Source: Balanoglossus misakiensis
Taxonomy: Eukaryota > Animalia > Hemichordata
Direction of reading: 5' to 3'
NCBI GenBank assembly: GCA_040954595.2
Contig: CM082595.2
Coordinates: 4,304,137 to 4,368,136, forward strand
DNA: 64,000 bases
The notes under the pieces are model-generated. The model made no database searches, had not been told where the DNA came from, and worked only from the letters and a program-made list of their open reading frames with translations. The position numbers and the translations under genes were made by a program. Position 1 is the stretch's first letter. Every line of letters begins with the position of its first letter. Below, piece by piece: positions 17,957 through 31,426 of this stretch.

Positions 17957-19664
17957 GGCAGGCAGGCAGACAGACATACATACATACATACATACATACA
18001 TACATACATACATACATACATACATACATACATACATACATACATACATACATACATACATACATACATACATACATACATACATACATACATACATACA
18101 TACATACATACATACATACATACATACACTAGTACATAAGCGTCGTACTTACACTGGGAATGGTCTTGCTTCGGGCGTTTCTTCGGGTTTTTCTTAAGCT
18201 GCGATAGAATATGGGATCCTTTGACATGGCTGGGTCCGCGCTGTGGCTCGGGACGGACCCAGGCGTCCTCCGCCGGCGCCTCGCGGAATAAATCTTCCGC
18301 TCCACAAGCCACGAAGACGTCGTGGTCTTTGAAGTCTCGGAATAACTGTGAAAAACTTTCGACCTGTTTGTAGAAAAGGGAAGAAGACATCGTGGTGTTT
18401 AAATGTCATAGAGGAAGGAAGACTTTCGAAAGGGTGGTCACATTCCCAATAAAATATTTCTCAAATGTTCACTGTACTTTTCGTCGAATACATACAAGAC
18501 ACTGTGTACAAGTACAGTATTTTCTTTGGTATGCGGTTCCTTTGCGTGCTTGCTTCATTTGAGAAAAATCTTGATTGAATACAACTTTCAATTATTTTCT
18601 CCAGAGATCAGAATTGAGCTTTAGGTTGCCATGGCTTTTTAATCAAATACTGCGAAGGCTGACAGATTAAAAAACGGCTTATATATATTTTTTAATATAC
18701 AAAGAGAATCAAAGTGCCGAAGCTTGATACATGTACATGCTTTGAAAATTCCATGTGGGTATGTAAATACCAATCTGATTAAAATCAGATGTAGGGAACG
18801 GCGACTTGGATTTTTATGCTGTCGCCACAGCATAAAAAAACCAAGTCGCCGTTCCCTACATCTGATTTTAATCAGATTGTGTAAATACATAACAAGAATA
18901 CTAACCTGTTCTTCTGTTTTCCACGTATATAATTTTCGAATGGGAGGCGTCCTCATCGTCAGAGCCTGTGTCATGTCTTTGAGGACCTCGTCAAAATTTT
19001 GCGTTGTTTTAGCGTTCAATAGAATTTTGGCTTTACTGTCTCTGTGTGTATTGCTTATAACGGTAATCATACGGGGTTTTGTTCTGTACAAGTTCGTTGG
19101 CGACTCATTACTGGCACGGGATCCAGCCGGCACGGGCGAGACGTTGATACCGAGCATTCCCGGGGCGTCTTGTCTCTGATACAGAGGTTGGTCTGCCCGT
19201 CGAATCCCGCCCGTCGGCTTCCTGTTCTGCCAGTACCGTTCTCCCGATTTTCCATAGGGAATCCCTGACACATAATTCCCACTGGCGCAGACGTAACCCT
19301 TTCCGGGTTCTAGTTCCGAGATGTCGCCCAGTAGTCGTCCACTCAGCGTGTAAATGTGCCGTACGCCATACGGCAGTTTGATTTTCTCCCCGAGGTACAC
19401 CAGCAAGGTTTCCCAGCTGGGGAAGTTCCTGTGGGTGACGGGTATGTCCAGTCCTTTAAAATGCCGGTCACCGTTCCGGTAGAACGTTATTCGCTTGCCT
19501 TTGCTCTCCTTGTGTAACGGCTGTCCCGTGTGCGCCGTCGGCATGAAGGTGTCCTGTGTCGGGGTCACCATCGTCTTACTGTCGGCGTCCCACGACTCGT
19601 CATCGGCGTCTTGTGAGCTGTCCCCGCCATGGTCATCAATGTCCTCGTCGTCTTCGGTGGAATT
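9185..19664 (-). CDS. DCX-EMAP-type protein: echinoderm microtubule-associated protein-like (EML) with two N-terminal doublecortin domains, HELP motif and WD40 (TAPE) propellers; 15 core coding exons, 5' end further upstream
   Basis: Exons read by eye with GT-AG boundaries: 19664-18906, 18363-18153, 17855-17285, 17105-16956, 16672-16603, 14955-14854, 14634-14539, 13629-13489, 12130-12034, 11798-11626, 11297-11028, 10574-10232, 10008-9913, 9668-9538, 9352-9185 (TAG). Motifs: DCX1 [31 protein letters not shown]2 [37 protein letters not shown] repeats [58 protein letters not shown]. Confidence 0.93.
10695..10963. mobile_element. Non-autonomous TIR element with TTAA-type ends (Kolobok-like); related copies at about 46846-47113 and a terminal fragment at 13861-13893
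   Basis: TIR core TTATGCGCATGTGC / GCACATGCGCATAA; internal GAAAAGACAGCA and CAGTCCACTATTTGAATG shared with the 46.9-kb copy, which is bounded by TTAA|AGGG...CCCT|TTAA. Confidence 0.65.
11396..11585. repeat. (TATG)n microsatellite
   Basis: Direct inspection; source of the spurious YIHT/MYVC ORFs. Confidence 0.97.
13812..13859. repeat. (GATT)n microsatellite
   Basis: Direct inspection. Confidence 0.95.
15449..15475 (-). CDS. Candidate 27-nt cassette microexon (PEDVAICHY) of the DCX-EMAP gene
   Basis: Minus strand: ttttcttcccccgccccag|CCTGAGGATGTTGCAATATGCCACTAT|gtaagt; phase 0-0, matching flanking exons (..PDSA| and |AHIRVW..). Confidence 0.55.
17106..17284 (-). other. U12-type (minor spliceosome) GT-AG intron in the HELP motif
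   Basis: 5' splice site GTATCCTTG; CCCTTGAC branch point about 10 nt before the AG with no polypyrimidine tract; splicing restores EWV-YGYRG. Confidence 0.85.
17908..18126. repeat. Compound (GACA)n(GGCA)n(TACA)n microsatellite
   Basis: Direct inspection. Confidence 0.97.
18771..18879. mobile_element. Foldback MITE with 39-bp perfect TIRs and 9-bp TSD (Mutator/MULE-like)
   Basis: CAATCTGATTAAAATCAGATGTAGGGAACGGCGACTTGG and its exact reverse complement; TGTAAATAC on both sides (18762-18770, 18880-18888). Confidence 0.85.
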
Positions 19665-22177
19665 CTGTTCGGCGGAGAGAAGAGACCGGTAACCGGTTAG
19701 AATAAAACACAACAAAGACACAAGTTGCTGCAGAGATCAATAAATCTATGCAGAAAAAACGTGTTCAGATGCAAATTTCGTGGAAACGCTTACGGTCAAA
19801 ATCGATACGTCGCTGCATAATTAGCTCGCGACAAAACTATAACGGTAACTGGATTCATAATTATCACATCATGCCGGAATTTTTTTTACAGTTTACACCA
19901 GCTGCATTGCGCTCTTTGTACACGGACACGCTGAATTCAACGCCTATCGCGTCCTAACAACCATGGGGGCGCGTACGCATAAACATATAACATCTGTATA
20001 ACTATTTACTGCCATGACAACATATTCATACGCTGTGAATGGCACATTATCATAATTGGAAGTACCCTCCTTTGTGATCTGACGATGATTTACGATGTTG
20101 TGAAGTTGATTAACTCGGGTGTTCTCGGGACAAGAAATAGAACCACCAGCCCAGGTGGATGATCTCAAAGGGATGATCTAAAAGCATCTCATTTGCTACA
20201 GTTATATACAGTGCTTCACTTGTGTATGGAATCGATCACAAGGCAGTGAATGGCAAAGTTCACCTTCCCGCACGGTGTCAAGGCCCATGCAGCGAAAGTG
20301 TAGCCTATAGCTGCATTTTTCATTACCAATAGTAGATCCGTCATCGCTGGACATAAACGGCGTCCAATAAATTATGCATGATTAACTTATTAAATTTTCT
20401 AGCACAGTAGGACTTAAGTAAATATATATACAGCGACAGGCCATGGAAATGAAAATCCGACGAAGGCTTCGAACCGTCACTTCCATTAACCATGTAATAG
20501 CCCAGGGTTCACGGTCCGACTGGGAGAGGTAAACAGCCATAAATAACGATAGAGGAATATTTGCTTCGAATAACTCGAAACAGCCAACGCAGCAATTAGC
20601 AGTTTTCACACTTAACACTTTTATGGACTGAAACTCAAACAAAAGTGACCACCGACCTCGAAAACTGACCTTTGAACCCGCCCTATTGTTAAACTGCGGA
20701 CTATAAATACGCGCACACAAAAGAAGAGAATAGCGTTTTCATTGGTTTGTTTTACAACTGAGAAGACGTTAGTGATTATTTCAGAGCTTTGAGATGTCAG
20801 CAAATAAATCTTGTTGACCGATCGGCGGGGTTCACTGGAGCGAGACCAAGAAAAACAGCAGATTAAAGCGGTTTGACACAAAACCAGAACAACACGAATT
20901 ATTTACCTGAGGTGTGTACTAACACGCCAGTGGCATATTTATTCTGGCGAGATAAAGTAACAAAATCCTTTTTGACATGATCACAATCCCTAGGATTACT
21001 CGTAGGGAGTTAAATCGTCTTTTTGACAGGTGATGGGGACAGTAACAACTCCGTTATTTCATCGTCCGCTCGCACGGGTCGTTGGCTCGACCTGACGAAG
21101 ATGCCGTTATTCATGACAGTCGATAGCCATAACTGACAGCGCTATTGTCCTTATGGGCCTTTCTTATCCACCGTTTTATTGAAAGTGTTTATTATTCATT
21201 GTTCCCTTATTCCTATCAAACTGTTTATTTTCTGTGTGATTTTCTGGCAAAATAGTCTCGACGACCGTGCTGCAAACAAGACGGAGAGTCCATAGATAAA
21301 AGCTGCAGTATACAATAAACACATTGAATGTTGATATTTTACATATTTTCATGTTTCTGATGTCTCTCACGGAAAGACTAATGTTAATACGAAAGGTGTC
21401 CATTTTTTATATTCGAAATGAAGAAGATACACCAATATCAAAATTACGTCATTTTTTGTGGTTAGGAATCCTCTGACTTAAAAAAATGGAGTGTTTTGTT
21501 TAACCTCAGTGACACTTGACAGAATGGAACCAACGCCCATAACTTGCGAATCCATAGATACGCAAAAACAAACTGCAAAACACAGGTGAAAGGTCACGGC
21601 GGCGCAGCGTTTATGAGGTTAGGGACCGCGTGTATATATTCAATGCACGGACACTCCAAATTAACTTACTATATTTTATGTTCAGAATGGCTGACAGGGC
21701 GGTTTTCGATTACTGTGTCAAAATATACGTAGCACAATCCGTTCAAGTTGAACTCGGGATATAATCGTTCCGGGTAAGAAAGTGCATGACGCTAAAGGCA
21801 ACGACAAGGCTTTCATTTTTATCCCTAGGTAACTGCCCCTGAAGGTGGGACCTGTGTATATTGGACTGCGATGCCGCAGCAGGCAACGTCGTATTCAGAA
21901 ATTTACAATAAAATGATTATGTTGATGCATTAAATAGACATTTCCGATAAACAAATATGTTTTAAAAACAAAAGCCTATTGTACCATAAGACGTTGGACA
22001 AGATTTTACATCTTTTACAAGGCCTAAATTAACAAAAAATCAATATATATCTGTCTGTCTGTCTACCCGTCTATCTAGCTACCTGCCTGCCTATCTGTGT
22101 AAATCTCTAATACACTACACCCGCCACCAAAAGTACCGAAAATGGAAACGAAGGAAAAAACAAAGAATAACGTCTAC

Positions 22178-31072: not shown

Positions 31073-31426
31073 CCCAAGTCGGTTAGCTCGTAGTAACTCT
31101 TCCGCACGGGCCAGCACCGCCGCCCGCCTTTCCCGGCGGTTCAAAAATCTATCCATGGATCTGCTGTGACTTCGGGGAGGCAGACGGATCTCGATGGGAA
31201 TGTTGATCCCGCCGCCGGGGCCGATCCCGGGATCGCTGTAGCTGTCCCGTACCTGTTTATCCTCGCCGATGGCCAAGCCTACCTCCACGGGATGTCCATA
31301 GTGTCTCCCGGCGGCGTCGTAGTTCATGTGCCCGGTCAGGGCAACATTGCCGCCGTTTGAGATCCGCGGGGTAACCATGTACTTACTGCCGTGAATGAAC
31401 ACGTTGACGTTCTTCCTCGCCTCCAT
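31073..31426 (-). CDS. Candidate alternative first coding exon D of DCX-EMAP (MEARKNVNVFIHG...RANRLG), or first exon of an otherwise unseen gene
   Basis: GC-rich 118-codon ORF, gttATGG, GGG|gtgagc phase-0 donor; X-box-like motif at 31650 and CRE at 31737 upstream. Confidence 0.6.

What the first reader, a model, noticed from the sequence alone, without database searches (positions are those of the whole stretch)
19664..31426. Array of alternative ATG-led first exons feeding one DCX-EMAP constant region
Seen: the DCX exon starts at a strong acceptor (branch TTCTAAC, pyrimidine tract, CAG|AAT at 19664, phase 0), so an upstream exon is required. In the next 12 kb four separate minus-strand ORFs each begin at an ATG with a purine at -3, stay open, and end at a phase-0 donor: 22261-22178 (28 aa), 22676-22533 (48 aa), 25133-24984 (50 aa), 31426-31073 (118 aa). 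A weaker fifth candidate lies at 20323-20264. Inference: a variable-first-exon/constant-body architecture giving cell-type-specific N-termini to a microtubule-binding protein. Established: Drosophila DCX-EMAP organises microtubules in mechanosensory cilia. Caveat: I searched for such exons, so chance matches are possible.
Basis: partly seen in the sequence, partly recalled or inferred. Interest (0 to 1): 0.85.

Follow-up and report, generated by a model that had tools for sequence, protein, structure and literature searches.

The report
Swappable first exons of DCX-EMAP gene
An acorn-worm gene for a microtubule-binding protein carries three short alternative front-end exons that annotated isoforms of related species also use (a fourth is likely), probably each read from its own promoter; this is a known kind of gene design, but the longest front end holds a small helix motif, of unknown and likely protein-docking role, shared with amphioxus and molluscs.

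Summary
The gene is a hemichordate DCX-EMAP orthologue, 86% identical to Ptychodera flava in the DCX exon. All 16 listed isoforms from Ptychodera, Glandiceps and Saccoglossus begin with an orthologue of exon A (31426-31073; 7 isoforms), C (22676-22533; 5) or D (22261-22178; 4). Each joins the DCX exon directly; none is in series. Exon B (25133-24984) is in none of the 16 but looks coding: about 0.7 real. Candidate E is probably chance. Amphioxus, sea-urchin and mollusc orthologues also swap N-termini ahead of DCX. Exon A ends in a predicted helix, RxxRAx[IV]LxRAExLL, with no Pfam match. It recurs only in long DCX-EMAP N-termini of hemichordates, amphioxus and molluscs (39 of 377 proteins). Strict RFX X-box palindromes cluster in the region, suggesting ciliary promoters, but a looser consensus shows no clear excess. 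No RNA data were available for this genome, so start sites and cell-type specificity are untested. This is plectin-type multiple first exons, already implicit in RefSeq; the motif is the new part.

The parts
31073..31426 (-). Exon A, outermost alternative coding exon (118 aa, phase 0); mostly disordered, with a predicted C-terminal helix
   Evidence: 88/117 identities to Ptychodera and 73/113 to Glandiceps N-termini, 20/26 to the Saccoglossus one. Codon scores are above all 72 null segments. AlphaFold2: helix at 90-117, mean pLDDT 51.6 overall.
31091..31135 (-). Conserved helix motif RxxRAx[IV]LxRAExLL (exon A residues 98-112)
   Evidence: R98, R101, E109 and L111 are invariant in 19 motif-bearing sequences. 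39 of 377 fetched proteins score 16.5 or more, the rest 2.9 or less.
24984..25133 (-). Exon B, probable fourth alternative coding exon (50 aa, phase 0); first exon or cassette not resolved
   Evidence: All-codon score above 72 of 72 null segments, synonymous-only score not significant (13/72). Weak likeness to a sea-urchin alternative N-terminus, p 0.004 uncorrected among 125 tests. In none of 16 hemichordate isoforms. No database hit.
22533..22676 (-). Exon C, alternative coding exon (48 aa, phase 0)
   Evidence: 34/48 identities to Ptychodera, 27/48 to Glandiceps and 25/44 to Saccoglossus isoform N-termini.
22178..22261 (-). Exon D, alternative coding exon (28 aa, phase 0)
   Evidence: 21/27 identities to Ptychodera and 15/27 to Glandiceps isoform N-termini.
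20264..20323 (-). Candidate E, probably a chance ORF
   Evidence: Codon scores at the null median (270/578 and 230/578 null segments score as high). No orthologous isoform.
18906..19664 (-). First constant exon: acidic stretch plus tandem DCX domains; common phase-0 acceptor at 19664
   Evidence: Pfam PF03607, two stretches, E 4.5e-25. 86% identical to P. flava P0001.
9188..18369 (-). Rest of the constant body (linker, HELP motif, two EML beta-propellers), 15 tblastn segments, plus 27-nt and 48-nt cassette exons
   Evidence: tblastn of P0010 at 56-100% identity. Domains of orthologue P0001. Cassettes at 15475-15449 and 13046-12999.
31650..31663 (.). X-box-like palindrome 223 nt upstream of the exon A ATG, in the 1.3-kb head-to-head gap to a sulfotransferase gene
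22834..22846 (.). X-box-like palindrome 157 nt upstream of the exon C ATG
26245..29868 (.). Four further X-box-like sites between A and B (26245-26258 a perfect match, 27540-27553, 27926-27939, 29856-29868)

Best explanation
This hemichordate DCX-EMAP gene has three alternative N-terminal coding exons (A, C, D) whose orthologues each join the shared DCX exon in annotated isoforms of relatives, and likely a fourth (B), probably each transcribed from its own promoter. Shown: the ORFs, the phase-0 junctions, and one-at-a-time use in annotated orthologous proteins. Inferred: transcription starts just upstream of the chosen exon, its donor skips the downstream alternatives because they lack good acceptors, and it splices to 19664. 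Some promoters are likely RFX-driven in ciliated cells. Every product keeps the DCX tandem, HELP motif and propellers and differs only in a 28-118 aa mostly disordered tip. The long tip would add an old basic amphipathic helix that most likely docks on a conserved partner such as tubulin or another ciliary protein, tuning where or how tightly the protein sits. The partner is unknown.
For: All 16 listed hemichordate isoforms begin with A (7), C (5) or D (4) and run directly into the DCX exon; none is in series. The excess of ATG-to-donor ORFs is strand-specific: 4 minus, 0 plus, null mean 0.66. My acceptor scan found no acceptor-like site within 400 nt upstream of A or B, and only sites 241-303 nt away for C and D. 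A sulfotransferase gene starts head-to-head 1.3 kb upstream of A, which bounds the 5' end. Strict X-box pattern: 4 in 19665-33000 against 0.14 expected (0 of 300), and these are all 4 matches in the 64-kb window. Two of them lie 157 and 223 nt upstream of the C and A start codons. Several N-termini meeting at one point ahead of DCX also occur in Branchiostoma (4), Lytechinus variegatus (3), Patella (4 blocks), Mizuhopecten (3) and Mytilus. The helix motif is confined to DCX-EMAP long N-termini: 0 of 149 DCX-only and 0 of 37 EML-only proteins carry it. A against the amphioxus long N-terminus gives z 7.1-7.4.
Against: No transcript of this genome was examined, and the relatives' isoforms are annotation models whose RNA support I could not see. 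Protein records do not show 5' UTRs, so non-coding leaders upstream of C or D are possible. B is absent from all 16 isoforms and has an AG directly before its ATG. The looser published X-box consensus shows no clear excess: 14 observed, 9.9 expected, 18 of 200 shuffles reach it. D has no X-box of its own. The motif is absent from 27 echinoderm proteins and 64 mostly arthropod cluster representatives. In the fly the DCX tandem is necessary and sufficient for microtubule binding and HELP directs localisation (PMC10471123, passages), leaving no known job for an upstream tip. A single N-terminus is listed for Antedon, Amphiura, Tubulanus and Montipora.
Confidence: 0.8

Rival explanations
1. One promoter upstream of A with a shared non-coding leader, and mutually exclusive splicing that picks A, B, C or D as the first coding exon.
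For: Protein records cannot tell first exons from first coding exons. Acceptor-like sites lie 303 nt upstream of C and 241 nt upstream of D, and an AG directly precedes B's ATG.
Against: No acceptor-like site within 400 nt of A or B, while the same scan recovers the true DCX acceptor. There is only 1.3 kb of room upstream of A. X-box-like palindromes sit just upstream of A and C. No long complementary pairs link the exons.
Confidence: 0.1
2. A, C and D are real first exons, but the peptides are passengers: the exons matter only as promoters and translation starts, and the proteins are functionally the same.
For: No Pfam match for any peptide at E up to 10. Most of A is predicted disordered. 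C has no detectable relative outside hemichordates. Some echinoderm isoforms simply start at an internal Met.
Against: The peptides keep 55-78% identity across three genera. A's helix motif is kept in amphioxus and molluscs.
Confidence: 0.25
3. B is not an alternative first exon: it is either a chance ORF or an in-frame cassette between A and the DCX exon.
For: Absent from 16 of 16 hemichordate isoforms. No homologue among 4 candidates (weak). A profile of the echinoderm exon does not list B among its top hits in the window. AG precedes the ATG.
Against: Decoys of 45 aa or more are expected 0.26 times in the region. B's all-codon score beats all 72 null segments. Its best pairwise matches are the echinoderm R[YF]KLSPV.P[GA]Y N-termini, p 0.004-0.022 uncorrected.
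Confidence: 0.4
4. The whole set is chance ORFs found by looking for them.
For: About one decoy of 20 aa or more is expected in the region, which accounts for E.
Against: tblastn E-values from 1e-36 to 4e-4 for A, C and D against annotated N-termini, with junctions at the same residue.
Confidence: 0.01

Closest known systems
Drosophila DCX-EMAP (CG42247)
   Same: Tandem DCX, HELP and two EML propellers. Hemichordate orthologues group with insect CG42247 proteins apart from EML1-4 and EML5/6 (SH-aLRT 98, quick tree).
   Different: The word 'isoform' occurs 0 times in the main text of both fly papers. No helix motif in 64 mostly arthropod representatives; several insect short forms instead start between DCX1 and DCX2. 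A mechanosensory role in hemichordates is untested.
Plectin-type multiple alternative first exons
   Same: Several unrelated short first exons splice to one common second exon and give short distinct N-termini (PMC8468861, passages: twelve first exons into exon 2).
   Different: Three or four exons rather than twelve. Promoters and tissue pattern are not shown here.
EML2-L / EML2-S and EML4 N-terminal variants
   Same: Same protein family uses N-terminal variation to change microtubule association (PMC12182296, passages).
   Different: EML2-S loses the microtubule-binding trimerisation and basic region. Here every isoform keeps the DCX tandem, and the swapped tips show no match to a known domain.
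Clustered protocadherin and UGT1 variable/constant arrays (recalled)
   Same: Variable first exons spliced to a constant body.
   Different: Those variable exons are large tandem paralogues encoding whole domains. These are short, mutually unrelated and not duplicated.

Membership tests
DCX-EMAP | Tandem of two DCX domains N-terminal to the propellers | tested here: met
   PF03607 with two stretches in 19664-18906.
DCX-EMAP | HELP motif plus two EML beta-propellers in the same gene | tested here: met
   PF03451, PF23409 and PF23414 in orthologue P0001; its isoform P0010 maps in order to 19664-9188.
DCX-EMAP | Orthology with insect CG42247 rather than EML1-4 | tested here: met
   Propeller-region tree of 32 proteins, with P0001 standing in for the window's protein; clade support SH-aLRT 98; quick search, midpoint root.
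DCX-EMAP | Organises microtubules in mechanosensory cilia | not testable with these tools
   Shown in the fly only (PMC2892299, PMC10471123).
Multiple alternative first exons (plectin type) | Several ATG-led exons, each spliced alone to one common exon | tested here: met
   16 of 16 orthologous isoforms for A, C and D; not shown for B or E, and not from this genome's own RNA.
Multiple alternative first exons (plectin type) | Each exon has its own promoter and start site | tested here: inconclusive
   Weak or absent acceptors and strict X-box excess; loose consensus not enriched; no CAGE or RNA data.
Multiple alternative first exons (plectin type) | Tissue- or cell-type-specific use | not testable with these tools
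   No RNA run was listed.
Protocadherin/UGT1-type variable array | Variable exons are tandem paralogues of each other | tested here: not met
   No exon-scale repeat in 19000-33000; direct repeats there are 35 nt or shorter. The peptides differ in length and sequence.
EML1-4 trimerisation coiled coil | Recognisable N-terminal trimerisation domain in the variable exon | tested here: inconclusive
   No Pfam hit for A at E up to 10. The conserved core is only about 15 residues. Self-association was not modelled.

The most novel reading that the evidence does not exclude
The bilaterian ancestor's DCX-EMAP already had a long isoform bearing the RxxRAx[IV]LxRAExLL helix and short isoforms lacking it. 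RFX-controlled promoter choice still switches this undescribed docking helix on in particular ciliated or sensory cell types of hemichordates, amphioxus and molluscs. It would be the counterpart of the EML2-L/S switch, and lost in insects, where the gene has been studied.
Probability: 0.3. Interest if true: 0.6.

Novelty: new member of a known kind. Interest (0 to 1): 0.35.

Why it matters
The gene design itself is ordinary and RefSeq already lists the isoforms in relatives. What is useful is that DCX-EMAP has been studied functionally in the fly, whose relatives lack the feature in my sample, while hemichordates, amphioxus and molluscs keep a long isoform with a conserved helix that has no Pfam entry. 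That gives a defined 15-residue target for mutation and partner searches. It also gives isoform-specific probes to ask whether different ciliated cell types (sensory, motile, sperm) use different versions of one microtubule organiser.

Tried and rejected
RNA evidence: no RNA holder was listed for 17300-26000; this is no evidence either way, and no reads could be laid. No whole genome is held, and no relative's genomic DNA was available, so B could not be sought in Ptychodera or Glandiceps DNA.

Exon B: homologue search gave 4 candidates, none at E up to 10 (weak). ESM Atlas gave no usable hit for B and only scores below 0.9 for A. A faint likeness of B to PLAT repeats of P0111 (E 0.044) was dropped because Pfam gave no hit at E up to 10. 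An echinoderm-exon profile did not rank B in its top hits.

Exon D against the amphioxus short N-terminus: p 0.004 uncorrected among 125 tests, and the profile search missed D; kept as a lead only. Exon C has no relative outside hemichordates among 361 proteins.

Complex prediction of the Saccoglossus helix (residues 1-31) with its own DCX tandem and propellers: no answer, score 0.00, alignment not used.

CpG o/e is about 0.7-1.6 across the first-exon region and does not single out individual promoters. No paralogy or long complementary pairs among the exons. Rfam found only a tRNA far away. Look-ups of earlier findings returned nothing. The careful tree search did not finish; the quick tree is reported.
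Full report
Observation. The five minus-strand ORFs are present exactly as described: A 31426-31073 (118 aa), B 25133-24984 (50 aa), C 22676-22533 (48 aa), D 22261-22178 (28 aa) and E 20323-20264 (20 aa). Each has a purine at -3 and a phase-0 GT, and the DCX exon 19664-18906 is open only in phase 0. The null mean is 0.66 and 0 of 200 shuffles reach four. 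About one decoy of 20 aa or more is expected. The thresholds were chosen to admit these candidates and the donor matrix is a recalled approximation, so this test only supports the case.

Identity of the gene. The DCX exon is 86%, 72% and 68% identical to proteins of the acorn worms Ptychodera flava, Glandiceps talaboti and Saccoglossus kowalevskii, so the window is most likely from an enteropneust near Ptychodera (inference). These proteins have two DCX domains, HELP and two EML propellers. A Ptychodera isoform maps in order across 19664-9188. In a quick tree of the propeller region from 32 proteins, they group with insect CG42247/DCX-EMAP and apart from EML1 and EML6-like proteins (SH-aLRT 98, midpoint root).

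The decisive test. The clusters of the three orthologues list 8, 6 and 2 proteins. All 16 begin with an orthologue of A (7), C (5) or D (4) and pass directly into the first residues of the DCX exon; none contains two of them. Identities are 88/117 and 73/113 for A, 34/48, 27/48 and 25/44 for C, and 21/27 and 15/27 for D. The Saccoglossus A form starts at the internal Met that corresponds to 31156. These are annotation models; from general knowledge such alternative isoforms usually rest on RNA, but I could not see that support. No RNA run was listed for this genome, which is no evidence either way.

B and E. Neither is in the 16 isoforms. E scores like non-coding DNA (270 of 578 and 230 of 578 null segments score as high) and is probably the expected decoy. 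B beats all 72 null segments on all-codon usage but not on synonymous usage (13 of 72). Its best pairwise matches are echinoderm N-termini with R[YF]KLSPV.P[GA]Y, which is an alternative N-terminus in sea urchins (p 0.004, 0.008 and 0.022, uncorrected among 125 tests). A profile of those N-termini did not rank B among its top hits in the window. Database, Pfam and Atlas searches found nothing. I put B at about 0.7 as a coding exon of this gene and about 0.6 as a first exon; the AG before its ATG leaves a cassette role open.

First exons or first coding exons? My scan found the true DCX acceptor, none within 400 nt upstream of A or B, and only sites 303 and 241 nt upstream of C and D. A sulfotransferase gene starts on the plus strand at 32721, head-to-head with A and 1.3 kb away. 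A strict recalled X-box pattern matches 4 times in 19665-33000 (0.14 expected, 0 of 300) and nowhere else in the window. A palindrome search with two mismatches gives 8 sites in the window (0.67 expected), 4 of them in the 13-kb first-exon region. A 13-bp variant adds 22834 and 29856 (4 of 100 shuffles reach two). Two sites lie 223 and 157 nt upstream of the A and C start codons; X-boxes within 500 bp of start sites mark RFX-controlled ciliary genes (PMC4168999, passages). Against this, the looser consensus quoted in that paper gives 14 sites against 9.9 expected (18 of 200). Separate, partly RFX-driven promoters are therefore likely but not shown.

Depth of the design. Judged from protein sequences only, several N-termini join at one point ahead of DCX in Branchiostoma belcheri and its hybrid (4), Lytechinus variegatus (3), Strongylocentrotus (2 plus an internal start), Patella (4 blocks), Mizuhopecten (3), Ostrea (2) and Mytilus species (4 or more). 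One N-terminus only is listed for Antedon, Amphiura, Tubulanus and Montipora, and one per species for the four flies examined. I did not see exon boundaries in these genomes.

The motif in A. AlphaFold2 models A as mostly disordered (mean pLDDT 51.6) with a helix at 90-117. A profile of the hemichordate helix alone placed all 7 of its positive-scoring hits among 191 other proteins in the long N-termini of mollusc DCX-EMAPs; each was weak (best 8.1 bits, shuffled maximum 5.9). A mollusc-only profile ranked A first among 2159 six-frame segments of the window (E 0.053), and an amphioxus-only profile did too (E 0.046). A combined profile from 8 sequences splits 377 fetched proteins cleanly: 39 score 16.5 or more and the rest 2.9 or less. 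Of the 39, 14 are training sequences or their isoforms. The other 25 come from Aplysia, Elysia, Littorina, three oyster genera, one unnamed record, seven oyster-cluster fragments and seven Branchiostoma proteins. None of 149 DCX-only or 37 EML-only proteins carries it, nor 27 echinoderm proteins or 64 mostly arthropod representatives (representatives may hide isoforms). In Patella, Mizuhopecten, Ostrea and Branchiostoma the short isoforms lack it. A and the amphioxus long N-terminus also share the IPIEIR block and a similar start (z 7.1-7.4). The motif has no Pfam match. A basic amphipathic helix kept across phyla in disordered surroundings most likely docks on a conserved partner; this step is inference and the partner is unknown.

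Mechanism. Most likely a promoter is chosen upstream of A, B, C or D. The exon's donor skips the downstream alternatives and joins 19664 in frame, giving the same microtubule-binding body with a different 28-118 aa tip. Shown: anatomy, conservation, and exclusive use in annotated orthologues. Inferred: promoters, RFX control, a docking role. Untested: cell-type specificity.

Comparison with what is known. This is plectin-type 5' diversity (PMC8468861, passages), and N-terminal variation is known in the family from EML2-L/S (PMC12182296, passages). It is not a protocadherin-type array (recalled comparison), since the exons are not duplicates. In the fly, the DCX tandem binds microtubules and HELP directs localisation (PMC10471123, passages). 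'Isoform' does not occur in the main text of that paper or of PMC2892299; I did not open their supplements. PMC11193195 (passages) mentions DCX-EMAP only as a fly gene. The search for DCX-EMAP found 28 papers, 27 listed, seen as titles and abstract starts, none on isoforms. Four combined searches returned none. Searches were seen as listings only, apart from the papers named above. The library omits most subscription journals, so absence from print is not established.

Verdict. The conserved long-isoform helix is the part worth following. Interest 0.35.

Noticed in passing
window 15475-15449 and 13046-12999 (- strand): A 27-nt micro-exon and a 48-nt cassette inside the propeller region match segments that are present or absent among Ptychodera and Glandiceps isoforms. 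A second 27-nt micro-exon seen in those species was not found by a simple pattern search of 14560-13600.
   Followed up: partly
window 15404-15417 and 15568-15581: Two X-box-like sites flank the 27-nt micro-exon deep inside the gene; possibly an internal promoter or enhancer.
   Followed up: no
window 29844-29821 and 27813 (- strand): An 8-codon ATG ORF ending at a phase-0 donor lies just after the X-box-like site at 29856, and a strong donor without an ORF lies about 115 nt after the site at 27926. These may be further short or non-coding first exons.
   Followed up: partly
window 32721-36616 (+ strand): Two tandem sulfotransferase genes (PF03567), each with a short signal-anchor first exon (ATG at 32721 and 35255); the first is head-to-head with exon A.
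   Followed up: partly
window 108-7783: An 87-bp tandem satellite of about 88 copies at 95-99% match with strong strand skew, ending about 1.4 kb from the gene's last coding exon.
   Followed up: no
window 37900-62000: Neighbouring genes: an EF-hand protein (37.9-38.8 kb, calcyphosin-like by recall), a multi-Neuralized protein (52-56 kb), an ING protein (59-61 kb) and a tRNA at 57850-57921. CpG is depleted over 39-50 kb but not over the DCX-EMAP gene.
   Followed up: no
proteins P0280, P0283, P0284, P0286, P0287, P0290, P0292, P0293, P0297; P0224, P0233: Several insect short forms start between DCX1 and DCX2, and DCX-less Lingula and Liolophura proteins nest inside the DCX-EMAP clade. Internal starts that drop DCX domains may be another recurring isoform type.
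   Followed up: partly
window exons A, B, C, D: Each peptide has a short run rich in beta-branched or aromatic residues (NVNVFIH and IPIEI in A, VDVHV in B, FFVVP in C, VNVNVHLHL in D); noted by eye, not tested.
   Followed up: no
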